A stretch of 64,000 bases of DNA from positions 155,178 through 219,177 of the forward strand of contig JAXGNR010000006.1 of NCBI GenBank assembly GCA_040767965.1, in the 5' to 3' direction. This DNA is from Atribacterota bacterium (lineage in GTDB: Bacteria > Atribacterota > Phoenicimicrobiia > Phoenicimicrobiales > Stramentimicrobiaceae). Positions within the stretch are counted from its first letter, which is position 1; each line of letters opens with the position of its first letter. The notes below the pieces were generated by a model. That model was not told where the DNA came from. It did no database searches and saw nothing but the letters and a program-made list of their open reading frames with translations. Shown in pieces: positions 32,746 through 49,805 of this stretch. The translations under genes and the position numbers were made by a program.

Positions 32746-33174
32746 TTAAAGAAAAAGATATAGTAACATTCTTACCATAAAAGCTACTATCAACATAGCT
32801 AAAAGAGTTGGTAAAATTCCTTGTTTTTTCATTTCATTAGCTAATAATCCAGGAATAATATAACCGATACTCTGCATTTCAATGTTTATTATCGGTAACT
32901 GAAATACAAAAGTTTCTATCAGCCACTTGATTAGAAAACTAATTAAAATCACACTTAAAAAACGCCTCTTACCGTAAAGAATAAAATAATTTGATAACAA
33001 CAAGATAAGGTAATAGGTAATTATGGCAATTCCAATGGTTAAAATAATACGCAATGGCTGATCAAAAAATAAAGCAATGTATCCGGGTACTACAATTCCT
33101 CCTGGAGATAAACCCACAAATTCATAAAATAAAAATCCTATAATTATTCCAATTCCGATTGCCTGATACAGCAT
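32746..33174 (-). CDS. pgsC: poly-gamma-glutamate biosynthesis protein PgsC/CapC
   Basis: GLSPGGIVVPGYIAL, ILYGKRRF, IGYIIPGLLANEMKKQG. Confidence 0.93.
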   Translation of the reverse strand: MLYQAIGIGIIIGFLFYEFVGLSPGGIVVPGYIALFFDQPLRIILTIGIAIITYYLILLLSNYFILYGKRRFLSVILISFLIKWLIETFVFQLPIINIEMQSIGYIIPGLLANEMKKQGILPTLLAMLIVAFMVRMLLYLFL

Positions 33175-34355
33175 ATTTCTTCCCCATTTTCTTGAAAATA
33201 TTCAATTATCTGCATCCCAGCTCCTTTGGTATTGCACAACCCATAAACTATACCGTAGTCTTCAATAAACTGAAAAACTGTCTCTATGATCTGATCAGGA
33301 TTTTTTCTCTTTTTTATCCGATAAATATTTTCAGAAGGATACCCAAAATCAGTTAATTTTTTCTGGCTTAGTGAACTAGTTGGACCAATAAGAATAATTT
33401 TTGAAAAGAAAAGATTATTGGCCAAAATTTGGTCAAACTGAATAGTTCGAGTAATACGGTCTTCCCGATGATTAACAATTGCTATTTTTTTCGCATGGAT
33501 CGTTTTTTTGCCAGAAAATAATTTATTAACTTTTTCCCACACAAGCAAAAGAGATTCTTTGTCATTAACGGCAAAAGAATTAATAAACCAGAGTATCTTT
33601 TTATTTTTAACTAATTTATAAATACTCAAAGCTCCTGGATCAGGAGTAGCCTTGAGTATACCTTGAAGAGCTGTGTCAGTATCAATTTTTAATAATCTGC
33701 TTACCTCTAAAGCGATAGCGATATTATCTTTAAAATATAAATGAGGTGTTTCTTCATAAGAAATTCCAGATAGCTTATCATAATCGGCTAAAATGGATTT
33801 GGTGTTTAATAAACTTGCGTATCCCTCGAAATAAGAAAAATATTTTTTTTCAGCTGTTACCGGCAAGCCATTCTCAGGAATTGTTGACTTTAAAGCATCA
33901 GCTATGTCTTGTAATTTAAAACCATAAATATCCTGATGATCAGCTCGAACATTTGTGATTATCCCAATTGTTGATTTAATAAGTTGGTGTTCACTTACCC
34001 ATTGAGTTTCAGGATTAACAGCCATACACTCTACTACAATAGCATCAACTCCTTTTTTAGCTGCCCTTCTTACAAAATATTTTTGTTCAATGATATTTGC
34101 ACCAAACTTTCTCCTAATTTCTTTTTCTGTACCATTTTCCAAAATAATTCTGGGGGCTGTCCCCGTTGTTTTAGCTAGTACAGAATAGCCAGCTTCTCTT
34201 AGGCAGGCTGCAATCAATCTTACAGTAGTTGATTTCCCTCTGATACCATTAACATGAATACGAATGGGTATTTTTTTTATTATTATTTTATGTAAGAAAT
34301 ATTCCAGGAATCCAAAAATAGTTATTAAAACTATAAGAAAAATTAGTATATACAA
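33144..34355 (-). CDS. pgsB: poly-gamma-glutamate synthase PgsB/CapB
   Basis: IPIRIHVNGIRGKSTTVRLI, KTTGT, ANIIEQ, VECMAVNP, ITNVRADH, FAVND; N-terminal TM; TTG start; overlaps pgsC. Confidence 0.95.
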   Translation of the reverse strand: MYILIFLIVLITIFGFLEYFLHKIIIKKIPIRIHVNGIRGKSTTVRLIAACLREAGYSVLAKTTGTAPRIILENGTEKEIRRKFGANIIEQKYFVRRAAKKGVDAIVVECMAVNPETQWVSEHQLIKSTIGIITNVRADHQDIYGFKLQDIADALKSTIPENGLPVTAEKKYFSYFEGYASLLNTKSILADYDKLSGISYEETPHLYFKDNIAIALEVSRLLKIDTDTALQGILKATPDPGALSIYKLVKNKKILWFINSFAVNDKESLLLVWEKVNKLFSGKKTIHAKKIAIVNHREDRITRTIQFDQILANNLFFSKIILIGPTSSLSQKKLTDFGYPSENIYRIKKRKNPDQIIETVFQFIEDYGIVYGLCNTKGAGMQIIEYFQENGEEICCIRQSELE

Positions 34356-34736
34356 GATAAGTTACCTTTTTTTTATTTTTAATGCTTATTTAATGTTTAA
34401 TGGTTTTCTTTAATTTAATTTTTACTATTAACTATTTTCTTGTATCTTTATCTCTTATTTTCCGATAAGTATAACAATAGCATGTAAATTTCTCTAAAAT
34501 ATTTTGGTAAACAAATCATGGTTAGCCTTTTTATTATTTAAAATAAAACTCCTTCCATTGTTTTCAATAAAATGATATATTAAATTGAAATAACCTACTT
34601 AAAAAACTGCTTAGCATAATAAATTGTTCTTTTATTTTATCATATTTCCAAAGGATAGAGCCTAATTTCTTTTGTTGATTTTTTCATTTTGTTACTTTAT
34701 TATTTAAATTCAATTACATAAATTTTGGTTTACAAT

Positions 34737-35846
34737 ATGAAAAACTGGATAAAACCTTTCATTCCAATGAAATATATCATAATTGCTTTTTTGATAATCA
34801 TTGTTGGCATGTTTTTCGTTGAAACTACAAAAAAAACTGTTAATAGACCCTATTATCAGATCCAGGCAGAAGCAGCCCGAATAATGCTTCAATCTGCAAA
34901 TTCTCTTCAGAAGGAAAAAACATTAAAAAATATCCCGACTTCCAATGAATTAGATCCAAATCAGACTGGTCTGATAGGTATGGAATTTACTCCTCTTACA
35001 ACTACTCTGGGTAATCTGACTGCAAAACGTACTTCTACTAATCCTGATTTTGCAGCATTAATGGTAAAATTTATGAAAGAGGCAAGATTAACATCCGGTG
35101 ATTATATCGCAATAGGTGCCAGTGGCTCTTTTCCTGCCTTAGTAGTAGCAATTTTGTCTGCCTGTAAAGCCATGGAAATTAACCCTCTCATTATATATTC
35201 TATTGGATCTTCAGAATACGGCGCAAACATCCCTGGTTTTACATTTATAGAAATGTTGAATATTTTAAATAAAGAAAACATTTTACCTTATAAATTGTTA
35301 GCAGTGTCTCTAGGTGGAGAAAATGATCAGGCAGAATCAATGCTTTACCCTGAATCAAAAGAATTAATTAACAGCATAGCCAGAGAATCAGGAATTTTTT
35401 TTATTAATACAAGTAATCTGGAAGAAAATATCCAGAAGAGAATTGATTTATATCAGGAAAGTACTGGTAAACAACCAATCAAATTGTTTGTAAATATTGG
35501 AGGAAATGTAGCTAATTATGGCACTACATCTTCTTCCATCACCTTTCCAAATGGTCTTATATTACAACATTCAGAAATTCCCAATCATCCCACAAGAGGT
35601 TTAATCTTTGAATTTCAATCAAAAGATATTCCTGTTATAAATTTGTTAAATATAGTAGATTTAGCAATAAAAAACCAGCTAGCCATTGACCCTATTCCAT
35701 TACCATCTGTTGGAAAGAGTAATTTATATAAAGAAGTTCAATATTCAAAATGGTTGATTATTTTAATAATAATTATAGAAATTTTTTATCTCTGCTGGAT
35801 ATCCTCTTATAGAAAGATTTTAGCTCGTGATAGTGCTGAAATATAA
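34737..35846 (+). CDS. pgsW: poly-gamma-glutamate system protein PgsW
   Basis: DPNQTGLIG.EFTPLTTTLG.L.AKRTSTNPDFAA, ASGSFPAL, GSSEYGAN, FVNIGG; N- and C-terminal TM helices; divergent from pgsB. Start uncertain (34725/34737/34767). Confidence 0.88.
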   Translation: MKNWIKPFIPMKYIIIAFLIIIVGMFFVETTKKTVNRPYYQIQAEAARIMLQSANSLQKEKTLKNIPTSNELDPNQTGLIGMEFTPLTTTLGNLTAKRTSTNPDFAALMVKFMKEARLTSGDYIAIGASGSFPALVVAILSACKAMEINPLIIYSIGSSEYGANIPGFTFIEMLNILNKENILPYKLLAVSLGGENDQAESMLYPESKELINSIARESGIFFINTSNLEENIQKRIDLYQESTGKQPIKLFVNIGGNVANYGTTSSSITFPNGLILQHSEIPNHPTRGLIFEFQSKDIPVINLLNIVDLAIKNQLAIDPIPLPSVGKSNLYKEVQYSKWLIILIIIIEIFYLCWISSYRKILARDSAEI

Positions 35847-35905: not shown

Positions 35906-37282
35906 TTACATGTATTTATTCAGCAATATAGAAAAGAGAACCATTCCGAAAAGTGCAAATGGATATACTGCTCCATACCCTGCTGCAGGGTCATCACTGC
36001 CGACAGAATCAATTGCAGCACCTAATCCGGGGGTAGAAGTCATTCCTCCACAAATCGCTCCGGATAGCATCACCCAATTTATTTTAAATAAATATCTCCC
36101 TACAAAAAATCCAGCCAATAAAGGAATGGAACCAATGAAAATACCGGCAATTGCCAGAGAAAGCCCGGGTCCAGTCAAAGAATCGATAACCTGGTAGCCA
36201 TATCTTATTCCAATAACTGCAAAGAAATAAGCAAGGGTTATTGACCTTAAGACTCCTAGAACCTTATTATCCATTCGAAAGCAAAAAGGACCAATATTAC
36301 CAATATGACCTAGAAACAAGGCTGCAATAAGCACTCCACCTGTTGATCCCAGGCTTAATTCACCAAGGAATCCTAAAGGTATTTTGATAATCCCAATAAA
36401 ATATCCAACCATACACACAAGAGCATATGCGCTTAAATCAAAGAAAACTTCTCTGACACTCTTATCTTCACTATTTTCCTGTATATCTTTTTTTGAACCA
36501 ATACCTAATTCTTCTGCTAATAATAATTTTTCTTTACTGGTATCTATTTTAAAAAGGACCGGAAAAAAATTCATAGCAAAAATAACAATAATAACACCGA
36601 ATGGATAACTGACTGCATATCCGGTACCCACTGCGGCTTCTACATTTCTTACAAAATTACTCTTCTGTTCTTCTGTTAGCTCTTCTAAAATATTACTATT
36701 ACTAGCCTCTGCATTTTTTTTATTGTTTATTATATTAACTATTCTTTGTTTTTCAGATAAGCTTAAATGGGAATAATTCTCTAATAATTCACTGGAATGA
36801 GATCTTGCCGTCTCAATTGAAGCAGCTAATCCGGGTGAGCTGGTCAATGCACCAGTATAAGCTCCAGTATATAAATAAGGATTATCAGTTGAACTTAATA
36901 CACCTACCCCATAAGTTGCCATTGCTCCAACAGAGGTAATTAAAAATCCAAGTATAATAAATTTGGCACCATATTTTTTTACTACTTTTCCTACCTCTTT
37001 TGCAGCCAATAATCCAACTGAAGCAATGAATAAAATTAAAAATAAATCAAAAAATCCTTTATCAACAATTCCTTTGGCCAGGATATTCTGTCCGGTTTTA
37101 TAAAATTCACTGGCTGTTTCAATTTCATTAATAAATTTTGTTATCAGCCATCCTACAGCTATTCCCACAAACATGGATCCAGAGGTTCCAAAACTAAATT
37201 TTCCAAATTTAATATTACCAAAAAACATTCCTAAAAAAACACAAAAACTCATTAATAAAAAAGGATTTGTCCAGATTGACAT
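35906..37282 (-). CDS. AspT/YidE/YbjL (aspartate:alanine exchanger family) transporter without TrkA-C domains
   Basis: Duplicated domain motifs GAYTGALTSSPGL...GYAVSYPFG and GAICGGMTSTPGLG...GYGAVYPFA. Confidence 0.85.
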   Translation of the reverse strand: MSIWTNPFLLMSFCVFLGMFFGNIKFGKFSFGTSGSMFVGIAVGWLITKFINEIETASEFYKTGQNILAKGIVDKGFFDLFLILFIASVGLLAAKEVGKVVKKYGAKFIILGFLITSVGAMATYGVGVLSSTDNPYLYTGAYTGALTSSPGLAASIETARSHSSELLENYSHLSLSEKQRIVNIINNKKNAEASNSNILEELTEEQKSNFVRNVEAAVGTGYAVSYPFGVIIVIFAMNFFPVLFKIDTSKEKLLLAEELGIGSKKDIQENSEDKSVREVFFDLSAYALVCMVGYFIGIIKIPLGFLGELSLGSTGGVLIAALFLGHIGNIGPFCFRMDNKVLGVLRSITLAYFFAVIGIRYGYQVIDSLTGPGLSLAIAGIFIGSIPLLAGFFVGRYLFKINWVMLSGAICGGMTSTPGLGAAIDSVGSDDPAAGYGAVYPFALFGMVLFSILLNKYM

Positions 37283-37650: not shown

Positions 37651-38841
37651 CTACGGTTTTAACAGATAATATCCAAGACCATTTTCAATAATATCAGCTT
37701 TTTTTGGTAAATTTCTTATCTCAATCAAGTTTTCAGGGTATAGCTCTGAATAAGCTGCTATTAAATGACTTATACCAGAAGCATGACGACCTACTCTCCT
37801 ATCCAGTGGCATACCTATTCCTTCAGGATAGGGAACATAAATAAGTCCTCCGTGTTTTGCGGCTCTTTCATAAAAAACATCTTTCCCTTCAACCAGCAGC
37901 TTTTCATTGGTTGGCCCTCTTAAGTTATCCATTGCTGGATTAGGTGTCTCCATAATTAAAGCAATTGCGTCAGTATGATCAGAAAATTCTCGATGAGTGA
38001 GACCTCGCAAATTCTCTGGAGAAGGTTCTATGCGCATTGCAATTCCTTCATCTAACCCTAGTGTCATAGAAGCAGTAGCAGCTATATACATTGCCTTTTC
38101 AGGAGCAATAATACAATTAACAATAGGATTCATGGGACGAGCTTCATGACAATCAATTACCAGATCAATTCCTTCTTGCTTGACAAGAGTTGTAATGCCA
38201 TAAGCAATCTTTTCTGTAAGCATTCCATCTGGTCTGCCCGGGAAAACTCTGTTCAGATTTCTAACTTCGGAACCAGAAACAAATTGCCCAGAAGGATAAT
38301 GAGCATAAGCATCAGGATCTGGGTATTGATGGATGGGATTAGTCACACGACTTCCATAACGAAAAGTCCTTTTACCCCATTCTGTTTGAATATTAAAATA
38401 ATTAGGAGCCCCCTGCCCTGGATCCTGATGAGTAAAACCACTTGCATTTGAATGAGGAATGACAATCGCTTTACCTTTTTCAATTGATACATTTTCAATA
38501 AAAAGTACAGCAGCTAGTAATCCTGATGATTCATTGGGGTGAATGCCTCCCAGCAGCAACATAGTTCCCCCAGGTTCTTTTCCTTCCATATAATAAATAG
38601 CAGTATCTCCTGGGGTGTCTTTCAGTTCAGAAAAATAGTCAGACAGCCGTCCCACACTTGTTATACCTGGACCTTTAATAATTTCTTCTACCTTATGTTT
38701 AGCAGCAAAAATGACAGAACTGTAGACAATTAAAGCTATCATTATTGCGACTACTATCAGAGATTGGGTCAGGTTTGATTTATTGTTTTCCTTTTTAATT
38801 TCTGATTTGGTTGTTTTTTTTGCTTTATTATTTTTGACCAT
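37651..38841 (-). CDS. succinylglutamate desuccinylase/aspartoacylase family (M14-like Zn hydrolase), membrane-anchored
   Basis: GGIHPNE (HxxE), RNLNRVFPG, IDCHE, late catalytic METP; basic N-terminus followed by one TM helix. Confidence 0.85.
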   Translation of the reverse strand: MVKNNKAKKTTKSEIKKENNKSNLTQSLIVVAIMIALIVYSSVIFAAKHKVEEIIKGPGITSVGRLSDYFSELKDTPGDTAIYYMEGKEPGGTMLLLGGIHPNESSGLLAAVLFIENVSIEKGKAIVIPHSNASGFTHQDPGQGAPNYFNIQTEWGKRTFRYGSRVTNPIHQYPDPDAYAHYPSGQFVSGSEVRNLNRVFPGRPDGMLTEKIAYGITTLVKQEGIDLVIDCHEARPMNPIVNCIIAPEKAMYIAATASMTLGLDEGIAMRIEPSPENLRGLTHREFSDHTDAIALIMETPNPAMDNLRGPTNEKLLVEGKDVFYERAAKHGGLIYVPYPEGIGMPLDRRVGRHASGISHLIAAYSELYPENLIEIRNLPKKADIIENGLGYYLLKP

Positions 38842-39015: not shown

Positions 39016-39050
39016 TGCTTATATCTCCTTTATTATCTTTTAAAACAAAT

Positions 39051-40352
39051 TTAAGATGCTAGCCATTTAAGCTGGCTGGAATATAAAATTATCAATACAC
39101 CGATTATAGAAATTGTAATTGCAGGAACAATTAACATTTTGTAAAATCTTATCAATGGCTCGTCGTATTTAGTTACAATTATTGCAGCATTACCAACAAT
39201 AGCTGATGGCGGACACAAGGTAGCCAAAGAACAGATAAAAGCAATTCCTGCTGTTTCCACAATCGGATTAGTACCTAACAATGCCAGCATCAACGGAACT
39301 CCAAAAGCAGCTGCAGAACCATAAGTTCCTAAAACGCTTCCAGATAATGGAAGACCAATCATTAAAGCAATATAAACCAGAACCCTTGGTGCAGTTAGCG
39401 CTGAGATAACAAAAAGACCCCTTACTCCAGTTAAAGTCATAATTTGAACCAATGCTCCAACAGAAATTAAAATAGCACAAACAGGCAAAACTTCCTTTAA
39501 GGATAATTTTGTATTTCCGATAATGTCTATTTTTTTGGAAACAATCAAGGCAGGTATAGATCCTATTACAAAGATAAGGGGATTACCAAGAATGGGCAGT
39601 ATTCCAGGGAAAGTACTCTGAAAGATAAATATTGTCATAACTAAAATAATAGGGAAATACGCACCGAACCTACCTAGCCTTATTGATCCTTCTGGTATTT
39701 TATCAAGAATAGGTTGAGGATCAATACTTCTTTCCACATACTTTGCTCCGTAAAATAATGCAAATATTATCCCTAAAGGAATAGTTAGTATGATTAGAGG
39801 TAGAAAAAATCCCATATATGGCATATTAATACCATTAGAAATTATCATTGCTGGTATATTGATAGGAGGAGCACTGAGGCCAAGAATCCCGCCTATGGAT
39901 ATAAATGCCGTCACATTACGTTTAGGAAGACCAAGATGAGTAAGTATGGTCCCAATGGTTCCACCTACTGCCATAACAGCAGCAGTTCCTGAGCCGGTAA
40001 ATGCGCCTGGCAGCATGACAAAAAACATTAAAATAATAAGCATTAAAGGGGTAGAACGGGAAAAACCACTGATTATATCTCTTACAATAATGTTCATTGC
40101 CCCAGATTCTCTTTGAATAACAATAAAGATGGAGGCAGTGATTATAATAGCTACAATATCTAAAAAGGTGAACAACCCTTCAACTAGATGGGTAATCGGA
40201 ACACCTTCTCCCGCAACCAAGGCTCCTACAAGAGCAGCAAAGATAATATATAAACCAATGGGGATTTTCCTCTTATTACCCCACCAGTATGTCACAAAAA
40301 AACTCGCAATCATGACTATAAATATCAAAAAAGTATAAGCTGTTTGAGACAT
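39051..40352 (-). CDS. DctM-like (TRAP large subunit / ion transporter superfamily) permease
   Basis: About 12 TM segments; MLPGAFTGSGTAAV, GLSAPPINIPAMII, ATLCPPSAIVG hairpin motifs; GGAGG RBS. Confidence 0.8.
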   Translation of the reverse strand: MSQTAYTFLIFIVMIASFFVTYWWGNKRKIPIGLYIIFAALVGALVAGEGVPITHLVEGLFTFLDIVAIIITASIFIVIQRESGAMNIIVRDIISGFSRSTPLMLIILMFFVMLPGAFTGSGTAAVMAVGGTIGTILTHLGLPKRNVTAFISIGGILGLSAPPINIPAMIISNGINMPYMGFFLPLIILTIPLGIIFALFYGAKYVERSIDPQPILDKIPEGSIRLGRFGAYFPIILVMTIFIFQSTFPGILPILGNPLIFVIGSIPALIVSKKIDIIGNTKLSLKEVLPVCAILISVGALVQIMTLTGVRGLFVISALTAPRVLVYIALMIGLPLSGSVLGTYGSAAAFGVPLMLALLGTNPIVETAGIAFICSLATLCPPSAIVGNAAIIVTKYDEPLIRFYKMLIVPAITISIIGVLIILYSSQLKWLAS

Positions 40353-40562: not shown

Positions 40563-41144
40563 TTATTCTACATCTGCCTGGAATACCTTTTGCAATACTC
40601 CACCTACTTCAGGAGTAGTAGTTACCACTACCAAAGGAATATTCTTATCCTTTGAAAGATTACTGAAATAACCATCCTTGTTTCCTTCTTCAGTGACTAT
40701 AAGTCCCTTTGTTCTGGGAGCTACCAGATCAATAAACTGCTGGGAAAGAGGTCCTCTTCTGCCTTCTCCTCCAATATGGATCCCCAAAACTAATATACCC
40801 TGCTTTATTGCTTCATCTATTATTTTTGTTGATCTTTCCAGTTCAAATTTTTCATCAATTCCTGCTGCTCCTAATCCTTTAGTACTTCCACCCATAACTA
40901 TGATTAGGGTCTTAATATCTTTAATCTCATCAACATTAACAAGTCCATTATAGGAAGATTCTATTTTTGCCCTATCCAGTAAAACCTTAACAACAAAGGC
41001 ATCAGGGCTTTGTCCGCTGGAAGTTAATAAAATTGGCAATTCACCTTTCGGAAGCTCCTGGGCACAAGAAAAGCTAGTTATAATGCCAAAAAAAAGTAAA
41101 GTAAAAACAATAACTTTAAAATATTTATTGATAAATTTTCTCAT
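40563..41144 (-). CDS. DUF6305-like exported protein
   Basis: Signal peptide, then ILLTSSGQSPD, VMGGSTKGLGAAGID...E..R, HIGGEGRRG.LS, GNKDGYF. Confidence 0.8.
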   Translation of the reverse strand: MRKFINKYFKVIVFTLLFFGIITSFSCAQELPKGELPILLTSSGQSPDAFVVKVLLDRAKIESSYNGLVNVDEIKDIKTLIIVMGGSTKGLGAAGIDEKFELERSTKIIDEAIKQGILVLGIHIGGEGRRGPLSQQFIDLVAPRTKGLIVTEEGNKDGYFSNLSKDKNIPLVVVTTTPEVGGVLQKVFQADVE

Positions 41145-41170
41145 AATTTCTTTCTCCTTCTTTAGAATAT

Positions 41171-41205
41171 CTGCTGGAGATCAAAATGATTTTGGTCTCC
41201 AGCAG
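41171..41205. other. GC-rich stem-loop between ggt and the DUF6305-like gene (second copy at 43982-44016)
   Basis: CTGCTGGAGATCAAAAT-g-ATTTTGGTCTCCAGCAG; no U-tract in the minus-strand transcription direction. Confidence 0.7.
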
Positions 41206-41241
41206 CAAAATATGTTTAACAGTATCAGTATAGTTGAATAT

Positions 41242-43113
41242 CTACCAGCCTATGGCATAGCCTCCCCCTCTAGGATCAGAACCGGCTTCCCAGGTTTTAT
41301 GTTCTGGATGTATTAAAATACCATGCGCCATATTTCCTCCACCAAATTCAGGAAGTATTGAAACTTTATGTCCTTTTTCCTCTAATTCTTTAGCTATTTC
41401 TTCAGGTATTCTAGATTCCAATCTAAGAGTAGTATCAGCCCCAGGCAGGTAAAAATTCGGTTGAGCAGTAACTTCACAACGAGCAGCATCAATAGCTTCC
41501 TGGATTCCCATACCAAAATCAATTACATTAAGCAGAATCTGGAAAGTCACCTGGCCAATTGTTTCTCCTCCTGCAACACCATAGAGCATAAATAATTCTC
41601 CATCTTTCATAATCATGGTTGGGGCATTGCCTAAAAGAGATATTTTTCCACCTTTAATAACATTAACATTATCTTCATATGGTGCAACAGAACCTACTCT
41701 TGTTCCATTATTAAATAACAAACCTGTATTACCTACGATCACTTTTGTACCATGAAGATCTCCATGTGTAGGAGTAGATGAAACTGCATTTCCAAACCTG
41801 TCCACAACATTGAAATTAGTTGTAAAGCAGACTTCCTCAACATCTTCTTCTGTAAAATCATTATTATAAGCCGTTGTAAAGCTTTGTATAGAAGTTTTCA
41901 TCTGGGCAACTGCCTTTAGCTCTTCCGGAATCCCGGGACCAGGATAAGTCATTGCTTTTTCCATGTCAATCAATTCTCTTCTTACATCTGCATATTCCTT
42001 GGAAAGCATGGCTTCAGTTGGTATGTCAACAAAAGCTTCATCGGCAACATATTGATAGATATCAGCTTTAGCTAATTTAATACACTCTGCTACCAGGTGC
42101 CAATAATCAGAGGTATTATATCCAATTTCCTGTAAATCAAATCCTTCAATCAGGTTAGCCTGCATCGTAAGCTCATAGCCAGATCGTGAAGTTGATGGTG
42201 TAGTATAAATATCATACCCACGGTAATTAATATGCAATGGCTCTTTCCAGATAGGCTCATAATCTGCAAAATCCTTTAGAGTAAAAAGGCCATCATTTTC
42301 CTGATAGAACTGTACAACATCCTGTGCAATATCCCCTTTATAGAAACGGTCATAGGCTGCCTGCAAAGCCTCATTTCTGGATTTGCCCTGGGCTAAAGCC
42401 ATTTGTTCGGCAGCTACCAGTTTTTTAAAGGTGTTAGCCAAATCTTTCATGTAAATCATTTCACCTATTTCCGGCAATCTTCCATTAGGCATAAAAACTC
42501 GGGCTGAAGTAGGAAAAATAGCGATAATGCTTTCACTATTTTTAAACCAGGCATACATAACCTCACTAACCGGCTGACCATTTTCGGCATAGTCTATAGC
42601 TCTTTCTAAAACTTCAGCTAAACTCATGGTACCAAATTTCTGCATGGCCTGGATCCATCCACCAAAAACTCCCGGTACACAGCCTGCCTTATAGCCCATA
42701 GCTAAATCTTCAGGAGTGTGTATTTTTGGATCAACAGCATAGGGAACAGCACCAGTCATATTAATATTATAAACTTTATTTTCAGGCGCCCAATATATTG
42801 TAGCAAATCCATTCCCATCTAAACCAGTCATAGCCGGATCTACTACCTGTAAAACAGCATTTACGGCTACAGCTGCATCAATAGCATTGCCTCCTTTCAT
42901 GAGTATCTGAACACCTGCTTGAGAGGAAAAAGCATTGACCGAGCTGACCAACCCATATTTTCCTATAACACCAGGCCTGGTATTCAACTCTCCTAGATAC
43001 GATGTTTTAATTGCTCTAGCACTTACAGTTAAAACAGGGAGAGCAGCCACAAGTACAAAAATAGTAGATAAGATAAAAATATATACTATTTTATTTAATT
43101 TTCTTTCATTCAT
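41242..43113 (-). CDS. ggt: gamma-glutamyltransferase family protein (Ntn hydrolase), paralog 1, exported
   Basis: GGNAIDAAVA, CVPG, autoprocessing site FTTNFNVVDRFGNAVS, oxyanion GVAGG, C-terminal GSDPRGGGYAIGW; signal peptide. Confidence 0.92.
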   Translation of the reverse strand: MNERKLNKIVYIFILSTIFVLVAALPVLTVSARAIKTSYLGELNTRPGVIGKYGLVSSVNAFSSQAGVQILMKGGNAIDAAVAVNAVLQVVDPAMTGLDGNGFATIYWAPENKVYNINMTGAVPYAVDPKIHTPEDLAMGYKAGCVPGVFGGWIQAMQKFGTMSLAEVLERAIDYAENGQPVSEVMYAWFKNSESIIAIFPTSARVFMPNGRLPEIGEMIYMKDLANTFKKLVAAEQMALAQGKSRNEALQAAYDRFYKGDIAQDVVQFYQENDGLFTLKDFADYEPIWKEPLHINYRGYDIYTTPSTSRSGYELTMQANLIEGFDLQEIGYNTSDYWHLVAECIKLAKADIYQYVADEAFVDIPTEAMLSKEYADVRRELIDMEKAMTYPGPGIPEELKAVAQMKTSIQSFTTAYNNDFTEEDVEEVCFTTNFNVVDRFGNAVSSTPTHGDLHGTKVIVGNTGLLFNNGTRVGSVAPYEDNVNVIKGGKISLLGNAPTMIMKDGELFMLYGVAGGETIGQVTFQILLNVIDFGMGIQEAIDAARCEVTAQPNFYLPGADTTLRLESRIPEEIAKELEEKGHKVSILPEFGGGNMAHGILIHPEHKTWEAGSDPRGGGYAIGW

Positions 43114-43357
43114 TTTTATTATCCCCCTTTATTATTAAATTAACTTTCACAAATCAGATGTCTTAACTTATGATTTGTACTTAAGTGCTATTAATTTTTA
43201 TTAAAACTCCTAAATCACTCCTTCTGTGTTTTATATTTATCAAAATAAATATTTTTTATAAATAGTTTATTTTAATACAACATTTTATAATTATTAATAT
43301 TTATAAAAACAAAATAAAAATAAAGATTGAGTTATGAAAAAGTTTCTTCTTAAAAAG

Positions 43358-44069
43358 AAATTATCTCCAACTTATTCTACATCTTGCCTGGAATACCTTT
43401 TGCAATACTCCACCTACTTCAGGAGTAGTAGTTACCACTACCAAAGGAATATTCTTATCCTTTGAAAGATTACTGAAATAACCATCCTTGTTTCCTTCTT
43501 CAGTGACTATAAGTCCCTTTGTTCTGGGAGCTACCAGATCAATAAATGCTGGGAAAAGAGGTCCTCTTCTGCCTTCTCCTCCAATATGGATCCCCAAAAC
43601 TAATATACCCTGCTTTATTGCTTCATCTATTATTTTTGTTGATCTTTCCAGTTCAAATTTTTCATCAATTCCTGCTGCTCCTAATCCTTTAGTACTTCCA
43701 CCCATAACTATGATTAGGGTCTTAATATCTTTAATCTCATCAACATTAACAAGTCCATTATAGGAAGATTCTATTTTTGCCTATCCAGTAAAACCTTAAC
43801 AACAAAGGCATCAGGGCTTTGTCCGCTGGAAGTTAATAAAATTGGCAATTCACCTTTCGGAAGCTCCTAAGGCACAAGAAAAGCTAGTTATAATGCCAAA
43901 AAAAAGTAAAAGTAAAAACAATAACTTTAAAATATTTATTGATAAATTTTCTCATAATTTCTTTCTCCTTCTTTAGAATATCTGCTGGAGATCAAAATGA
44001 TTTTGGTCTCCAGCAGCAAAATATGTTTAACAGTATCAGTATAGTTGAATATCTACCAGCTATGGCATA
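43358..44069. repeat. ~712-bp direct repeat, copy 2
   Basis: Same as 40549-41259 except indels near 43385, 43546, 43556, 43781, 43869, 43910 and 44060. Confidence 0.95.
43372..43955 (-). pseudogene. second copy of the DUF6305-like gene, frameshifted as written (likely sequence errors)
   Basis: Nucleotide copy of 40563-41144 with six indel events; the track ORF 43361-43705 is a fragment of it. Confidence 0.85.
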
Positions 44070-45863
44070 ACCTTCTCTTCTAGGATCAGCACCGGCAGTC
44101 CATGTTCCGAACTCAGGATGAATTATAATCCCCTGCATACCGCCAACACTACTGGTAAATTCCGGGTATAGTCTGATTGTATGACCTTTGGCTTCAAATT
44201 CTTTAATCACTTCTTCAGGTATTCTGGACTCTAATCCTACAGTAATTGCTGCTCCAGGAGTATAAAAATCAGGATTTGCACTGAGAGTTCCTCTTGGAGC
44301 TTCTATAGCATCCTGGATTCCCATACCAAAATCAACAACATTGAGTAATACCTGGAAGGTAGTTTGGCCAATTCCTTCTCCGCCCGGAGTTCCGTAAATC
44401 ATAAAAGGCTTTCCATCTTTCATGACAACAGCAGGGCCATTACCCAGTAAGGATATTTTTCCTCCCTCAAGATAATTGACATTGTCTTCATACGGGGCAA
44501 TAGAACCATATCTAGTGCCATTATTGAATAATAATCCTGTATTTCCAACTACTACCCTGGTACCAAAGAAACTACCATGAGTAGGAGTAACTCCAACTGC
44601 ATTGCCAAAACTGTCAATAACTTCGAAGTTGGTTGTTTCTCCATCATCAATTATTTGTTCCCGGTAGGCAATAGCATTAGATAGTTGAGCTACTGCTTTT
44701 AATTCTTCTGGAACACCTGCTTCAGGAAATTCCATTGCTTTATCCATGTCAATCAATTCTCTTCTTACGTCTGCATATTCCTTTGAAAGCATGGCTTCAG
44801 TGGGTATGTCAACAAAAGCTTCATCGGCAACATATTGATAGATATCAGATTTAGCCAATTTAATTGACTCAAAAACAAGATGTAGATAGTCAGCACTGTT
44901 GTGACCAAGAGCCTGTAGATCAAAACCTTCTATCAGATTTAGCTGCATACAAACCTCGTAGCCTGTTCTGGAAGTGGAAGGACTGATAAAGACATCATAT
45001 CCTCTATAATTGGTGTGTAATGGTTCTTTCCAGACTGGCTTGTAATCAGCAAGGTCTTCAGCTGTGAAAAACCCACCATTTTCTTGGTAAAATCTTACAA
45101 TCTCCTGGGCAATATCACCAGTGTAGAAACGGTCATAGGCTGCCTGTAAAGCCTCATTTCTGGATTTTCCCTGTGCTAAAGCCATTTGTTCGGCAGCTAC
45201 CAGTTTTCTATAAGTATTAGCCAGGTCTTTCATGTAAAACATTTCTCCCACTGCAGGTACTTTGCCTCCCGGCAGGAAAACTCTAGCACTAGTTGGATAT
45301 AATTCAAAATTAATTTTATTTGATTCTATGTTGCTTTGAAAAACCGGTGTTACCGGGAACCCGTTTTCTGCATAGTTAATGGCACTTTCCATAACTTCTG
45401 CCAGGCTCATGGTGCCAAACTTCTGCATAGTTTCAATCCATCCACCAAAAACTCCTGGTACACAGCCTGCTTTATAGCCTATATCCACTTCCTCTTTGGT
45501 AAGATTTTTCAAATCAGCAGCATAAGGAACTGCTCCAGTCATTCCCACTGAATAAACTTTATTTTCAGGAGCCCAGTAAATTGTGGCAAATCCATTTCCA
45601 TCTAAGCCTGATGCATGAAACTCTACCACATGTAAAGTTGCTGCTACTGCTACTGCTGCGTCAATGGCATTACCTCCTTTTTTAAGGATATCTAATCCAG
45701 CCTGAGAAGCTAGTGAATTGGCTGAAGTAACTAACCCTTCCACGCCCACAACGGCTGGTCTATAAGCAGCAATTGAAGTAGCTGCAAATAAAGAAAAACA
45801 AACTACTATTATCAGTAAGCAAAAAATATTTAGGTTTTTTTTAGAGAACTTACTTTTATACAT
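44053..45863 (-). CDS. ggt: gamma-glutamyltransferase family protein, paralog 2, exported
   Basis: GGNAIDAAVA, DGETTNFEVIDSFGNAVG, GTPGG, GADPRREGYAI. One missing base near 44060 turns the shared ...YAIGW* end (stop at 44053) into a read-through to 43992. Confidence 0.9.
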
Positions 45864-46018
45864 AACCTGTTACTCCTTAAATCTTTTAATTAATTAATTT
45901 TTTTATAATCTCTAAATTTATACTTTTTTATTTGTTAATAATCACCTCCAATTTTACCGGCTAAAATTTATTATTTGTTTCAAAAATGCAAATTCCAAGA
46001 ATTTTCTTTATCTATGAG

Positions 46019-47844
46019 CTACCAGCCAATAGCGTATGCTTCACCTCTTGGATCTGCACCAGCTGTCCAGGTACCATGTTCTTGATCTATTAAAATTGCT
46101 TGAACCATATTTCCGCCTCCTAATTCACCAACAACTGATACTGAGTGACCTTTAGAGGCAAGTTCTTTTATTACCTCTTCTGGCACTCTTGACTCGACAG
46201 CTATGGTAACTTCTGACCCGTGGGTATAAAAATCTACTTTAGACAATACTCTTGTTCTGGGGTCTTCAATTGCTTCCTGAATACTCATACCAAAATCAAT
46301 AACATTGAGTAATGTTTTAAACATTGCCATACTAATGGATTCTCCTCCCGGACTACCAAAAGCCATAAACAGTTTTCCATCTTTTATGACAATAGCAGGA
46401 GCATTTCCCAACAGAGAAATCTTTCCTCCTTCCAGATAATTAACATTATCCGGATAAGGGGCGATAGAACCATACCTGGTGCCGTTATTGAATATTAACC
46501 CGGTTTTACCAATCACGACTCCAGTTCCATAAATATTTCCATGGGTAACTGTAGCAGATAATGCATTCCCAAATCTATCGATAATATCAAAATTGGTAGT
46601 ACATTCACTCTCATAAACTTCACTGTTACTTTTGTCACTTACTTGACCAGCAATACTATATTCCGGGGTAAAACCATAAGCAACTGCCTTTAGCTCTTCC
46701 GGAATCCCGGGACCAGGATAAATCATTGCTTTTTCCATGTCAATCAATTCTCTTCTTATGTCTGCATATTCCTTGGAAAGCATGGCTTCAGTGGGTATAT
46801 CAACAAAAGCTTCATCAGCAACATATTGATAAACATCAGCCTTCGCTAGCTTGATACACTCAGCAAATACATGTAGATAATCAGCACTATTATTACCAAG
46901 AGCCTGCAGGTCAAATCCTTCTATTAAATTCAAGTACATAATTACTTCATAACCACTTCGTGAAGTGGAGGGGCTTATGAAAAGATCGTAACCGCGATAG
47001 TTAGTATGTAACGGCTCTTTCCAGATCGGTTTGTAATCTGCTAAATCTTCTTTTGTAAACAGACCGTCATTTTCCTGGTAAAATCTTACAATCTCCTGTG
47101 CAATGTCCCCGGTATAAAAACGGTCATAGGCTGCCTGTAAAGCTTCATTTCTGGATTTTCCCTGGTCTAAAGCCATTTGTTCAGCAGATCCATTTTCTTG
47201 AAGGTGTTAGCCAGGTCTTTCATGTAAAACATTTCTCCAACTGCAGGTACTTTGCCTTTAGGCAGAAAAACTCGGGAAGTTGTTGGAAATAGTTCTAGAG
47301 TAGTTTTAAATCTTTCTGTCCAGTCATACCAAGCAGAGGTAATCGGGAAGCCTTTTTCCGCATAATTGATGGCACTTTCCATAACATCTGCCAAACTCAT
47401 AGTACCAAATTTTTGCATAGCTTGAATCCATGCCCCAAAAAGTCCCGGGACACATCCTGACTTATAGCCTCTGTCAAGCTCTTCTTTTGATAGTTTACTA
47501 AAGTCTACAGCATAAGGAACTGCTCCAGTACCAGCTATGGAATATACTTTATTTTCAGGAGCCCAGTAAAGAGAAATAAAACCATTCCCATCTAAACCGG
47601 ACATATAATATTCAACAACATTTAATGTAGCAGCTGTAGCTACCGCAGCATCAACAGCATTGCCACCTTTCTGTAAAATATCTAATCCAGCTTGACTGGC
47701 AAGGGAATGAGCAGAAGTAGTTAAGCCATAAACACCAACTATATTAGGTCTATATTGAGCATTAACTGTCAAAGTAAGAATAGATAAAAGTAAGATGAAT
47801 AAAATGAGATTAAACATTTTAGTGCTTAACTTGTTTTTAAACAT
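46019..47844 (-). CDS. ggt: gamma-glutamyltransferase family protein, paralog 3, interrupted by a 1-bp frameshift near 47189
   Basis: Track ORFs 47167-47844 and 46019-47176 are the two parts. Paralogs read KKLVAAEQMALAQG here, and adding one base gives KKMVSAEQMALDQG. ECTTNFDIIDRFGNALS, GSPGG, GADPRGEAYAIGW. Confidence 0.88.
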
Positions 47845-48397
47845 TACGATTTACTCCTTGATTTATTTTAAATTTAATTAATAACCAAGGTGCATCTCTT
47901 TTTTGTAATGATTACTTATTTTGTAGTTTGGTAGTTAGTTATTTTATAATATGAACTTTAGTTCATAAACAGTATTCTTAACCCGGGACATCACCACCTT
48001 AGAAATATGACTGCATTCTGAAAAATGTGAAATGAGGAATTGTATTTTATGAATAAATATTCATTTTGAGTAAATTTTGAGTAAAATAAATTATTACGTA
48101 ATACACGTAATAACCAAAATAACCAAATATATTATTTATTATATTATAAATAATATATTATAAAAAAACAACTATAAATACTTTAAATCTCAAGCGCTTT
48201 TGTAGTTTTAAAACTACTTTGTTATTTAATAATATCTTTTCTTCAGGAAATAGATTGTTATTTTATAGAAAATTAAATAAAAATTTACACTTGAAGTGTA
48301 AGCACTAATAGAAAATAGTACATTTTATAGTAAATTATAGAAACATCAGAAGTTAAAACAAATGTAAAAGTATTTTAGAGATTCAATTTATCTTAAT

Positions 48398-49777: not shown

Positions 49778-49805
49778 CTTTCTCCTCTAAATTTTCTTCT
49801 CTAAT

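What the first reader, a model, noticed from the sequence alone, without database searches (positions are those of the whole stretch)
41242..47844. Three exported GGT paralogs share a non-canonical substrate pocket
Seen: all keep the autoprocessing Thr (TTNF) and oxyanion GG, but the canonical TxT(L/I)N becomes TPTHG/TVTHG, NNEMDDF becomes NNGTR(V/Y)GS, and RPLSSMSP becomes KISLLGN(A/G)P. Established: those Asn/Asp/Ser-Ser residues bind the glutamate alpha-amino and alpha-carboxyl groups in E. coli-type GGT; CapD and YwrD-like enzymes have other variants. Inference: a distinct Ntn-hydrolase subfamily with a different acyl donor (polymer, D-Glu or non-glutamyl amide). The paralogs also differ after the GG motif (ETIG/EGIG/ESIS), suggesting split specificity.
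Basis: partly seen in the sequence, partly recalled or inferred. Interest (0 to 1): 0.7.

Follow-up and report, generated by a model that had tools for sequence, protein, structure and literature searches.

The report
Polyglutamate-linked GGT-like enzyme trio
Three neighbouring genes encode exported relatives of gamma-glutamyltransferase that keep the catalytic machinery but have lost every residue that normally grips free glutamate, and their gene neighbourhood suggests they work on the polymer poly-gamma-glutamate rather than on glutathione.

Summary
Three tandem minus-strand genes (A 41242-43113, B 43992-45863, C 46019-47844) are GGT-family (PF01019) Ntn hydrolases. They keep the nucleophile Thr, Thr409 and the Gly-Gly oxyanion hole. 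All six E. coli glutamate-binding residues are replaced: R114, N411, Q430, D433, S462, S463 become T, G, G, V/Y, L, G.

The same replacements are fixed, or nearly so, in the 120 closest database relatives. In trees the clade (SH-aLRT 99-100) lies apart from E. coli Ggt plus CapD, the YwrD/acylase-like group and the LmbA-like group.

- In this assembly only A is intact. B has lost its stop and C is frameshifted. Public contigs carry intact forms, and dN/dS against orthologues is 0.04-0.06.
- Each of A and B is followed by a DUF6305 gene.
- The cluster sits in a conserved module (DUF6305, DctM-like permease, AstE/AspA-like metallohydrolase) next to PgsB, PgsC and TIGR04332.

In other lineages, clade members lie inside the PgsBC operon itself.

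Best reading (0.5): polymer-accepting poly-gamma-glutamate hydrolases or transpeptidases, CapD-like in role but not in descent. No enzyme has been assayed. Gemmatimonadota orthologues lack PgsB.

The parts
41242..43113 (-). GGT-A: the only intact paralogue in this assembly (623 aa). It has an N-terminal hydrophobic segment, the nucleophile Thr431, TPTHG at 447-451, NNGTRVGS at 468-475, KISLLGNAP at 490-498 and GG at 515-516.
   Evidence: PF01019 at 387.7 bits. TIGR00066 at 342.5 bits, under the 357.85 cut-off. Motif positions. AlphaFold model pLDDT 80.6; Foldseek TMq 0.72-0.79 to GGT precursors and LmbA2991.
43992..45863 (-). GGT-B (623 aa as it stands). One base is missing just before the normal stop, so the frame runs 21 codons into the spacer. 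Its motifs are TPTHG, NNGTRYGS, KISLLGNGP and GGEGIG.
   Evidence: PF01019 at 410.3 bits. The C-terminal tail is seen in the alignment. The single-base gap against copy A is seen. Contigs of runs X2 and X4 carry an extra base behind 44059, which restores ...AIGW-stop; these are the 2 runs of 4 with cover there. dN/dS is 0.04-0.056 against orthologues L134 and L136.
46019..47844 (-). GGT-C, split in this assembly into ORFs 47167-47844 (225 aa) and 46019-47176 (385 aa) by a one-base frameshift near 47189/47190. Its motifs are TVTHG, NNGTRYGS, KISLLGNAP and GGESIS.
   Evidence: PF01019 matches profile positions 2-169 and 175-511 on the two ORFs. DNA read. One contig of run X3 (depth 3.5 of 8.3) has an extra base behind 47189 that restores the frame. 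dN/dS is 0.04-0.061 against L137 and L133a.
40563..41144 (-). DUF6305 gene A (193 aa, N-terminal hydrophobic segment), directly downstream of GGT-A.
   Evidence: PF19823 at 162.1 bits. Model pLDDT 89.1 with a generic three-layer alpha/beta fold. Found next to GGT-family genes in many other loci.
43361..43955 (-). Second DUF6305 copy, downstream of GGT-B. It is about 98% identical to copy A and is broken here by about seven single-base indels.
   Evidence: Repeat families D5-D8. Pairwise DNA alignment. PF19823 pieces with TAG stops inside. A contig of run X4 lacks the extra bases at 43869 and 43908.
39051..40352 (-). 433-aa polytopic membrane protein, a DctM/DcuC-like (ion-transporter superfamily) permease. 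It is part of the conserved module.
   Evidence: No Pfam hit. Weak DcuC hit in NCBIfam, E 3e-6. ESM Atlas nearest clusters are TRAP large permease DctM, score 0.99, a lead only. Syntenic in the loci.
37651..38841 (-). 396-aa membrane-anchored AstE/AspA-like (M14-like) zinc hydrolase. It is part of the conserved module.
   Evidence: PF24827 AstE_AspA_cat at 30.2 bits. The nearest solved chains are DoeB deacetylase and succinylglutamate desuccinylase/aspartoacylase-type proteins, E 5e-6 to 2e-4. Syntenic in the loci.
35906..37282 (-). AspT/YidE/YbjL-type permease (458 aa), lying between the module and the poly-gamma-glutamate cassette.
   Evidence: PF06826 at 207.1 bits. TIGR01625 at 101.8 bits, cut-off 71.95.
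34725..35846 (+). Poly-gamma-glutamate system protein (TIGR04332), 373 aa.
   Evidence: TIGR04332 at 350.8 bits, cut-off 100.
33144..34355 (-). PgsB, the poly-gamma-glutamate synthase ligase subunit. It is the only PgsB found in this genome.
   Evidence: TIGR04012 at 386.9 bits, cut-off 222.7. It is the only match over the cut-off in the whole assembly.
32746..33174 (-). PgsC (CapC family), 142 aa.
   Evidence: PF14102 at 130.7 bits. TIGR04011 at 131 bits, cut-off 96.45.

Best explanation
The three genes are old, maintained paralogues of a distinct and widespread clade of the gamma-glutamyltransferase (MEROPS T03, PF01019) Ntn-hydrolase family.

Shown: they keep what is needed for autoprocessing and acyl-enzyme catalysis (nucleophile Thr, Thr409 equivalent, Gly-Gly oxyanion hole). 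They have replaced all six residues that hold the free alpha-amino and alpha-carboxyl groups of a terminal gamma-glutamyl donor. They lack the E. coli-type lid loop. They sit in a conserved module with a DUF6305 protein, a DctM-like permease and an AstE/AspA-like metallohydrolase, beside or inside the PgsB-PgsC-TIGR04332 poly-gamma-glutamate (PGA) cassette.

Inferred: after export and self-cleavage they attack gamma-glutamyl amide bonds of PGA, or of PGA-derived oligomers whose alpha-amino group is itself acylated. The small residues at the N411, Q430 and D433 sites would make room for the upstream chain. The clade-invariant Arg of NNGTR may take over carboxylate binding. The enzymes would then hydrolyse the polymer or transfer it to an acceptor.

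The membrane-anchored AstE/AspA-like enzyme would trim N-(gamma-glutamyl)-glutamate ends, and the permeases would take up the products. The three paralogues would divide the work, for example by stereochemistry, chain length, or endo/exo/transfer mode.
For: Catalytic residues are kept and the pocket is replaced. The replacements are fixed in 113-120 of the 120 nearest relatives.

The clade is monophyletic and lies outside the characterised groups.

The segment before KISLLGN has the Bacillus-type short length: it carries an 8-residue gap against E. coli and aligns to B. licheniformis GGT with only a 2-residue gap in the chain. The review passages say that Bacillus GGTs lack the lid loop, have a solvent-exposed pocket and degrade PGA.

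PgsB, PgsC and TIGR04332 all score over their curated cut-offs and lie 3-8 kb from the module.

The same module lies beside Pgs genes in Fusibacter paucivorans (L048) and in a Calditrichaceae MAG (L030).

Clade members (variant TPTIGT / HNATRFGSF / KTSLLNNSP / GGEGIG) lie inside the operon GGT-DUF6305-PgsB-PgsC-esterase-like-permease-M14, with TIGR04332 convergent. This is seen in whole or in part in five contigs of GC 0.55-0.59: L140, L141, L145, L147, L148. A further contig, L144 (GC 0.68), has GGT-DUF6305-permease-M14-TIGR04332.

The two module-linked subclades branch outside the subclade that lacks the module.

Among 41 related genomes, 17 of the 21 with DUF6305 also have TIGR04332, against 5 of the 20 without it. 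These genomes are kin and not independent.

B and C are under strong purifying selection, and intact alleles exist in public runs.
Against: No activity has been measured for any member of the clade.

In 5 of 5 Gemmatimonadota genomes that carry a ~50%-identical orthologue, neither PgsB nor DUF6305 was found. None of the 10 loci fetched there has any module gene within about 9 kb. Their neighbours instead include SusD-like proteins, S9 peptidases and unrelated genes.

In relatives of this organism the same module carries GGTs with a canonical pocket (L129, L130, L132) or an LmbA-like pocket (L124, L131). The module therefore does not dictate this pocket.

The two GGT-family enzymes known to act on PGA keep much more of the pocket. 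CapD keeps R114 and Q430. Bacillus GGT keeps the arginine and has Glu at the two sites where E. coli has Asn411 and Gln430.

The pocket loops of the model are at low confidence: pLDDT is under 50 at residues 451-454 and 470-492.

In several relatives the module and TIGR04332 lie on different contigs.
Confidence: 0.5

Rival explanations
1. They are extracytoplasmic amidohydrolases for a non-polymer substrate that lacks a free alpha-amino acid head, such as a glutaryl- or succinyl-type amide, an N-blocked gamma-glutamyl compound or another small amide. They would serve nutrient scavenging, and the closeness to the Pgs genes would reflect only a shared glutamate economy or chance.
For: The pocket has lost every alpha-group ligand.

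The largest subclade occurs without PgsB or DUF6305: 0 of 5 genomes and 0 of 10 loci. It lies next to SusD-like and S9-peptidase genes in some loci.

The module accepts GGTs of several pocket classes.

From recall, not checked here: a single Asp433 change is reported to let E. coli GGT accept glutaryl-7-ACA.
Against: Clade members sit inside PgsBC operons in several GC-divergent contigs. The module lies beside Pgs genes in at least four distant lineages. No candidate small substrate is suggested by any neighbouring gene.
Confidence: 0.25
2. They carry out non-amide chemistry, like the LmbA/Ant6 GGT homologues, which use the Ntn fold for C-C bond hydrolysis.
For: LmbA2991 (PDB 6j3a and 6j3i) is among the best structural matches (TMq 0.79). 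It shares the large-subunit insertion and a G-T-R and G-G-D/E pattern. Passages of Zhong et al. 2017 say LmbA-like proteins lack gamma-GT activity and form a clade near gamma-GTs.
Against: The window's clade is separate from the LmbA-like clade (SH-aLRT 94-99). There is no alkylproline or other biosynthetic cluster around it. The proteins carry export signals, whereas the LmbA pathway as I recall it is cytoplasmic.
Confidence: 0.05
3. They are ordinary gamma-glutamyltransferases or glutathione hydrolases whose pocket is rebuilt from other residues.
For: Sources annotate relatives as gamma-glutamyltranspeptidase/glutathione hydrolase. B reaches the TIGR00066 cut-off, 360.0 against 357.85.
Against: All six glutamate ligands are replaced, by Gly, Leu and other hydrophobic residues. 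A is under the TIGR00066 cut-off, and all copies are far under the E. coli-type model (242-254 bits against 990). They form a separate clade.
Confidence: 0.05
4. B and C, and the second DUF6305 copy, are decaying duplicates. Only A is functional.
For: In this assembly B has lost its stop, C is frameshifted, and DUF6305-B has about seven indels. In run X3 part of the depth at 47189 (4.8 of 8.3) agrees with the frameshifted form.
Against: The differences between the two DUF6305 copies are almost all single-base indels, with about two substitutions. That pattern fits assembly error better than decay.

Public contigs carry the intact B stop (2 of the 2 runs with cover), an intact C frame (1 contig) and an intact 5' part of DUF6305-B (1 contig).

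dN/dS is 0.04-0.06 against orthologues, and the catalytic residues are kept.
Confidence: 0.05

Closest known systems
CapD of Bacillus anthracis (GGT-family PGA transpeptidase/depolymerase in the capBCADE operon)
   Same: Both are exported, self-processing GGT-family enzymes encoded with PgsB/CapB and PgsC/CapC genes. Nucleophile Thr, Thr409 and Gly-Gly are kept. The proposed role, acting on the polymer, is the same.
   Different: CapD groups with the canonical GGT clade, not with this one (SH-aLRT 100; CapD is a long branch).

CapD keeps R114 and Q430 and has S, N, T, F at the other four sites, against T, G, G, V/Y, L, G here.

PDB sequence match is only E 6.7e-22 for the large chain and 1.1e-6 for the small chain.

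The cassette here uses TIGR04332, and no CapA-family gene is seen in the cluster. The genome's two PF09587 genes lie on other contigs.
Bacillus subtilis / B. licheniformis GGT (secreted, lid-loop-less, degrades PGA)
   Same: It is the best sequence match among solved structures: 4y23, E 2.2e-62 with the single protein and 1.6e-103 with the clade profile. Both have the short segment without the E. coli lid loop. Both are extracellular.
   Different: The Bacillus enzymes keep the arginine of the large subunit and the PLSSM motif and bind free glutamate. Here all of these residues are replaced. The large subunit here also carries an extra insert of about 25 residues (..AEQMALAQGKSRNEALQAAYDRFY..) that is a gap in the Bacillus and E. 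coli alignments.
LmbA2991 / LmbA / Ant6 (actinobacterial GGT homologues, C-C bond hydrolases; PDB 6j3a, 6j3i)
   Same: Similar length (617 aa). It shares the large-subunit insert. It has a non-canonical pocket with T-P-x-x-G, G-T-R and G-G-D/E patterns. Foldseek TMq is 0.79. It is a precedent for GGT homologues without gamma-GT activity.
   Different: It belongs to a separate clade. Its motifs are TPSGG / PLGTR / GGD, not TPTHG / NNGTR / GGE. From recall, it is cytoplasmic and biosynthetic. It has no Pgs or DUF6305 context.
YwrD / class IV cephalosporin acylase-like cytoplasmic GGT homologues (e.g. PDB 2nlz)
   Same: Same family and fold (E 2.2e-54; TMq 0.76). The pocket is also non-canonical.
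   Different: It is a separate clade at SH-aLRT 100, with its own motifs (IQSNY, QNRG, HTIIP, VMGG) and no signal sequence. This genome has its own member on another contig.

Membership tests
GGT family (Pfam PF01019, MEROPS T03 Ntn hydrolases) | Profile match over the curated cut-off | tested here: met
   PF01019 scores 387.7 (A), 410.3 (B), and 256.1 + 139.9 (the two pieces of C). The cut-off is 27.
GGT family (Pfam PF01019, MEROPS T03 Ntn hydrolases) | Autoprocessing/nucleophile Thr, Thr409 equivalent and Gly-Gly oxyanion hole | tested here: met
   These align to E. coli T391, T409 and G483/G484 in A, B and C. Among the nearest relatives Thr is present in 120 of 120 and GG in 120 of 120. 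Processing itself was not observed.
GGT family (Pfam PF01019, MEROPS T03 Ntn hydrolases) | Alpha-beta-beta-alpha Ntn fold | tested here: met
   The model of A (pLDDT 80.6) matches E. coli, B. licheniformis and B. halodurans structures and LmbA2991 at TMq 0.71-0.79, E 1e-36 to 1e-39.
Canonical gamma-glutamyltransferase / glutathione hydrolase (TIGR00066, E. coli-type PRK09615) | Score over the equivalog cut-offs | tested here: inconclusive
   TIGR00066: A scores 342.5, under 357.85; B scores 360.0, just over. NF007187: 242-254 bits against a cut-off of 990.
Canonical gamma-glutamyltransferase / glutathione hydrolase (TIGR00066, E. coli-type PRK09615) | Alpha-carboxylate ligands Arg114, Ser462, Ser463 | tested here: not met
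   These are T, L, G in A, B and C (the R114 site was not readable in the C piece used). The residue roles are taken from passages of the review PMC8062742 and from recall.
Canonical gamma-glutamyltransferase / glutathione hydrolase (TIGR00066, E. coli-type PRK09615) | Alpha-amino ligands Asn411, Gln430, Asp433 | tested here: not met
   These are G, G and V/Y. Gly is present in 120 of 120 relatives at both of the first two sites.
Canonical gamma-glutamyltransferase / glutathione hydrolase (TIGR00066, E. coli-type PRK09615) | Gamma-glutamyl transfer or hydrolysis with glutathione or gamma-Glu-pNA | not testable with these tools
   An enzyme assay is needed.
CapD-type PGA transpeptidase/depolymerase | Encoded with PGA synthesis genes | tested here: met
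   PgsB, PgsC and TIGR04332 lie 3-8 kb from the module in the window. Clade members lie inside PgsBC operons in L140, L141, L145, L147 and L148.
CapD-type PGA transpeptidase/depolymerase | Common descent with CapD within the family | tested here: not met
   CapD falls with the canonical clade, and the window's clade lies on the other side of a branch with SH-aLRT 100. CapD is a long branch, so its exact place is unsure.
CapD-type PGA transpeptidase/depolymerase | CapD pocket pattern (R, S, Q, N, T, F at the six sites) | tested here: not met
   The pattern here is T, G, G, V/Y, L, G.
CapD-type PGA transpeptidase/depolymerase | Cleavage or transfer of poly-gamma-glutamate | not testable with these tools
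   An enzyme assay is needed.
LmbA-like GGT homologues | Clade membership and TPSGG / GTR / GGD motifs | tested here: not met
   The rows with TPSGG-type motifs, the pattern that LmbA2991 (PDB 6j3a) shows, form a clade of their own (SH-aLRT 94, 95); no LmbA sequence was itself in the trees. The motifs here are TPTHG / NNGTR / GGE.
YwrD / class IV cephalosporin acylase-like | Clade membership; cytoplasmic, with no signal sequence | tested here: not met
   It is a separate clade at SH-aLRT 100. A, B and C have N-terminal hydrophobic segments.
HpxW oxamate amidohydrolase | Close sequence or structural relationship | tested here: inconclusive
   There is only a distant match: 5hft large chain E 1.9e-12 and small chain E 5.2e-9, and Foldseek rank 50.

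The most novel reading that the evidence does not exclude
This clade is a second, independently evolved lineage of GGT-family enzymes dedicated to poly-gamma-glutamate. Its ancestral home would be a seven-gene system (PgsB, PgsC, TIGR04332, GGT-like, DUF6305, DctM-like permease, AstE/AspA-like hydrolase) found in uncultured anaerobes and other phyla.

The remodelled pocket, with all alpha-group ligands lost and a new invariant Arg and Glu, would be an adaptation to bind an internal residue of the polymer. The three conserved paralogues would split the work, for example D- versus L-units or cutting versus anchoring. DUF6305 would be a required accessory protein of these enzymes.
Probability: 0.3. 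Interest if true: 0.7.

Novelty: new variant of a known kind. Interest (0 to 1): 0.55.

Why it matters
GGT-family proteins are annotated almost automatically as glutathione hydrolases. This work defines a large clade in which that annotation is very probably wrong. Of 7,998 candidates scored, 4,783 match at E <= 1e-10, and the 120 best all share the remodelled pocket. The clade spans Planctomycetota, Gemmatimonadota, Acidobacteriota and landfill or digester anaerobes.

The work also gives a concrete and cheap hypothesis to test: the substrate is PGA or its oligomers.

It ties a domain of unknown function (DUF6305), an unclassified DctM-like permease and an AstE/AspA-like hydrolase to the little-studied PgsBC-TIGR04332 type of poly-gamma-glutamate system outside Bacillus.

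PGA-cutting or PGA-transferring enzymes are of practical interest for tailoring the polymer. They would also bear on how anaerobic communities store and recycle glutamate.

Tried and rejected
- **Complex prediction of GGT-A (45-623) with DUF6305 (33-193)**: no verdict, score 0.01 against a mark of 0.32. This counts neither for nor against binding.
- **Genome-contig scan with the clade alignment**: the tool chose generic GGT motifs and returned 80 loci, none over 40% identical. These were useful only as outgroups and, by luck, for L030 and L048.
- **First metagenome scan with the single protein**: found nothing. The allowed second scan, with a subclade alignment, gave the key loci.
- **DUF6305 fold searches**: Foldseek gave only weak hits to SGNH, flavodoxin and CheY-like folds (TM 0.27-0.47). 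VIA wide gave Z up to 10.4 to ribokinase-like and GT-B halves. This is a generic Rossmann-like arrangement and assigns no function. The ESM Atlas gave no usable hit.
- **Rfam scan of 32000-48600 at E <= 1**: 5 sub-threshold hits to eukaryotic or unrelated families, taken as chance.
- **Promoter/terminator scan of 37000-48500**: no more sites than in shuffles (48 against 44 promoter-like; 2 against 7.2 terminator-like).
- **Longest-ORF gene calling in high-GC loci**: it failed because antisense ORFs won. It was replaced by a GC3 filter.
- **Literature**: no paper holds 'DUF6305' or '6J3A'. The family of the Pusillimonas PGA depolymerase EnvD could not be checked, because the primary paper is not in the library and only citing passages were seen.
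- **Earlier findings of this scan**: nothing found.
- **Careful tree search**: it did not finish in time, so both trees are quick IQ-TREE searches with SH-aLRT support only.
- **Parts of the stretch without contig cover in the laid runs**: these say nothing.

Full report
**What is there**

On the minus strand of 41242-47844 lie three GGT-family genes:
- A (41242-43113, 623 aa) is intact.
- B (43992-45863) is open for 623 codons, but its end differs from A and C. Instead of ...YAIGW-stop it reads ...YAIAGRYSTILILLNIFCCWRPKSF.
- C is two ORFs, 47167-47844 and 46019-47176, which match Pfam PF01019 positions 2-169 and 175-511. The DNA shows a one-base shift at about 47189/47190.

All pieces match PF01019 far over its cut-off. 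Against NCBI's equivalog for true gamma-glutamyltransferase (TIGR00066, cut-off 357.85), A scores 342.5 and B 360.0. The E. coli-type model is missed by a wide margin: 242-254 bits against 990.

The assembly holds one further family member on another contig. It is a 538-aa protein without a signal sequence, of the YwrD/acylase-like type.

**The observation**

HMMER alignments to solved E. coli and B. licheniformis GGTs, and a MAFFT alignment with the K-12 ggt gene and pXO2 capD, give the following mapping:

| E. coli residue | Here |
|---|---|
| T391, T409, G483, G484 | kept |
| R114 | T |
| N411 | G |
| Q430 | G |
| D433 | V (A) or Y (B, C) |
| S462 | L |
| S463 | G |

The review PMC8062742 (passages seen) names these residues as the donor pocket of EcGGT.

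The query also lacks the E. coli lid-loop segment. It has an 8-residue gap against E. coli there, and aligns to the lid-less B. licheniformis enzyme with only a 2-residue gap in the chain. The review says lid-less Bacillus GGTs have a solvent-exposed pocket and degrade PGA.

The pattern is not chance. In the 120 best of 4,783 database matches (7,998 candidates scored; 48-100% identity, the window's own two intact proteins among them), the counts are:
- N411 and Q430 sites: Gly in 120 of 120.
- Arg of NNGTR: 120 of 120.
- S462 site: Leu in 120 of 120.
- S463 site: Asn in 99, Gly in 21.
- R114 site: Thr in 113, Ala in 7.
- Glu after the GG: 120 of 120.

**A distinct clade**

I built two quick maximum-likelihood trees (IQ-TREE, SH-aLRT only; the careful search did not finish). 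In the first (45 rows), the 19 rows with this pocket form one clade (SH-aLRT 100).

In the second (51 rows), 26 rows form the clade (SH-aLRT 99). Several groups lie outside it:
- E. coli Ggt and other canonical enzymes together with CapD (100).
- The YwrD/acylase-like group (100).
- A group with TPSGG-type motifs (95). This is the pattern that LmbA2991 (PDB 6j3a) shows; the solved chain itself was not in the trees.

Rows dropped before the second tree were one partial sequence (L014) and seven redundant or very long-branched rows. CapD is a long branch, so its exact position is unsure.

A pocket table of all rows shows at least six pocket classes in the family.

Foldseek on a model of A (pLDDT 80.6) finds these matches at TMq 0.71-0.79: the E. 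coli precursor, the B. halodurans acylase, B. licheniformis GGT and LmbA2991.

LmbA2991 is a GGT homologue characterised with Ant6 as a C-C bond hydrolase. [quoted passage not shown] 2017, PMC5519988: abstract and two passages of the Discussion seen).

**Are B and C alive?**

The 700 bases downstream of A, which hold a DUF6305 gene, recur downstream of B at about 98% identity. The two copies differ by about seven single-base indels and only about two substitutions. That pattern is unusual for decay and typical of consensus errors.

I laid the contigs of four public runs on 40400-47900:
- An extra base behind 44059 appears in the two runs that have cover there (X2, X4; X1 and X3 have none). It restores the normal stop of B.
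- An extra base behind 47189 appears in one X3 contig (depth 3.5 of 8.3). It restores the frame of C. The rest of the depth agrees with the window.
- One X4 contig lacks the extra bases at 43869 and 43908 of the second DUF6305 copy.

B has orthologues at 74-88% identity (L134, L135, L136, P0002). C has orthologues at 82-86% (L137, L133a = P0005). The paralogues are only 65-69% identical to one another, and the tree pairs them accordingly.

dN/dS (NG86) is 0.04-0.056 for B and 0.04-0.061 for C against those orthologues. dS is near saturation.

I conclude that the triplication is old and maintained. The breaks are either assembly errors or very recent.

**Surroundings in the window**

Downstream of A lie, in order:
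- DUF6305 (40563-41144).
- A 433-aa permease with no Pfam match. Its nearest ESM Atlas clusters are TRAP DctM/DcuC-type, a lead only.
- A membrane-anchored AstE/AspA-like zinc hydrolase. Its nearest solved chains are DoeB-type deacetylases and succinylglutamate desuccinylase/aspartoacylase-type proteins.
- An AspT/YidE-type permease.
- TIGR04332 'poly-gamma-glutamate system protein' (350.8 bits, cut-off 100).
- PgsB (386.9 bits, cut-off 222.7).
- PgsC (131 bits, cut-off 96.45).

This is the only PgsB in the assembly. Two CapA-family genes lie on other contigs.

**The module elsewhere**

The set DUF6305 + permease + AstE/AspA-like + GGT-family recurs in the following places:
- Six loci from relatives of the same family or order: L124, L127, L129, L130, L131, L132.
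- Fusibacter paucivorans (L048).
- A Calditrichaceae MAG (L030).
- Metagenome contigs L133, L144, L147 and L148, and L145 (cut at the M14 gene).

Pairs or triples of the same genes occur in L011, L125, L126, L128, L136, L140, L141 and L153-L155.

Pgs genes lie in the same fetched stretch in the window and in L030, L048, L126, L128, L140, L141, L144, L145, L147 and L148. They do not in L124, L127, L129-L133, most of which are short contigs.

The clearest cases are L147 and L148, with L145, L140 and L141 partial (GC 0.55-0.59). There the order is GGT - DUF6305 - PgsB (311.6 bits) - PgsC - esterase-like - permease - AstE/AspA-like, with TIGR04332 (314 bits) convergent. L140, L141 and L147 are probably one organism.

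In L144 (GC 0.68) the order is GGT - DUF6305 - permease - M14 - TIGR04332 - TonB-type outer-membrane protein - sodium:dicarboxylate symporter.

The GGTs of these contigs belong to the window's clade as a basal subclade. Their variant motifs are TPTIGT, HNATR(F/Q)GSF, KT(S/P)LLNNSP and GGE(G/S)IG.

Among the 41 related genomes, DUF6305 is found in 21 and TIGR04332 in 22. Both are found in 17, DUF6305 alone in 4, TIGR04332 alone in 5, and neither in 15. These genomes are kin, so this is not a statistical test.

**Results against the PGA reading**

- The module does not fix the pocket. In relatives it carries canonical-pocket GGTs (L129, L130, L132, and also L030 and L048), LmbA-like ones (L131, and three paralogues in L124) or a further class (L011, L125).
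- The largest subclade of the window's clade shows no link to the module. 11 of 201 genomes sampled from the phylum of a Gemmatimonadota MAG carry a ~50%-identical orthologue. None of the 10 loci fetched has a module or Pgs gene within about 9 kb. Their neighbours include SusD-like proteins, S9 peptidases, a PLP decarboxylase, thymidine kinase and 2-oxoglutarate dehydrogenase. In the 5 of the 11 genomes that were checked, neither PgsB nor DUF6305 was found.
- CapD and Bacillus GGT, the family members known to act on PGA, keep the large-subunit arginine and more of the pocket.
- The pocket loops of the model are poorly defined.

**Reading**

I commit, at 0.5, to polymer-accepting gamma-glutamyl hydrolases or transpeptidases of a PGA system. 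The catalytic core is intact.

The three alpha-amino ligands are replaced by two glycines and a hydrophobic residue. That is what one would expect if the donor's alpha-amino group is itself in amide linkage, as in an internal PGA residue. The invariant Arg of NNGTR is a candidate for the free alpha-carboxylate.

The AstE/AspA-like enzyme belongs to a family that removes N-acyl groups from amino acids with free carboxylates. A gamma-Glu-Glu end is such a substrate, chemically. The permeases fit uptake of acidic products.

Whether the enzymes cut, size, anchor or recycle the polymer cannot be told from sequence.

The main rival (0.25) is a non-polymer amide substrate. Small shares go to LmbA-like chemistry, ordinary GGT activity, and decay of B and C.

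**Comparison and novelty**

A GGT-family enzyme encoded with PGA synthesis genes is known: CapD. This clade, however, is not CapD's lineage. It has a different and more radical pocket, and it comes with DUF6305 and the TIGR04332 type of cassette.

I found no paper on DUF6305. I found none on this module in two searches on PGA genes and GGT/CapD (listings and abstracts seen). The library is incomplete, and the EnvD depolymerase paper could not be read.

I rate this as a new variant of a known kind.

Noticed in passing
window 40575-41249 and 43385-44060: There is a repeat of about 700 bases at about 98% identity, covering the end of a GGT gene, the spacer and a DUF6305 gene. The flanking GGT genes, by contrast, are only 68-81% identical at DNA level. 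The two copies differ almost only by single-base indels, which points to a recent duplication or conversion plus consensus errors.
   Followed up: partly
window 44732-46775 (joints 44768>46760, 46775>44785, 44732>41950): Contigs of three public runs jump between the paralogues at spacings of 1991 and 2783 bases, at stretches of 9-23 shared letters. These are either assembler chimeras through conserved words or strains with B/C hybrid or extra copies.
   Followed up: no
L124 (G019:C28) 5901-18248: A relative in the same family carries the same module, but with three tandem GGT paralogues of the LmbA-like (TPSGG) pocket class. Other relatives carry a single canonical-pocket GGT in the same slot. 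The GGT position of the module therefore behaves like an exchangeable, expandable cassette.
   Followed up: partly
L147 4374-5276; L144 16064-20397: In the in-operon versions, an exported esterase-like alpha/beta hydrolase (weak match to the PHB-depolymerase family) sits between PgsC and the permease. In L144 a TonB-type outer-membrane protein and a sodium:dicarboxylate (glutamate-type) symporter follow TIGR04332.
   Followed up: no
window 40563-41144 and relatives: One database source names a DUF6305 protein as a 'ribosomal L7Ae/L30e/S12e/Gadd45 family protein'. The model is a generic Rossmann-like domain behind an export signal, so that name is probably wrong.
   Followed up: partly
G000:C10:79782-81272 (L001 1393-3009): This is the fourth GGT-family gene of the genome. 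It is 538 aa, has no signal sequence, and has YwrD/cephalosporin-acylase-like pocket motifs. It has the highest PF01019 score of all four, 503 bits.
   Followed up: partly
window 48398-59925: Directly upstream on the same strand lies what reads like an arginine and carbamoyl-phosphate biosynthesis operon. Only 51084-52277 was tested (class III aminotransferase); the rest is my reading of the translations and the ORF sizes. A 553-base gap without a recognised RNA element separates it from GGT-C.
   Followed up: no
window 26699-28862 and 32183-32647: A histidine kinase/response regulator pair and a MarR-type regulator flank the PgsBC end of the cluster. They are possible regulators of the system.
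   Followed up: no
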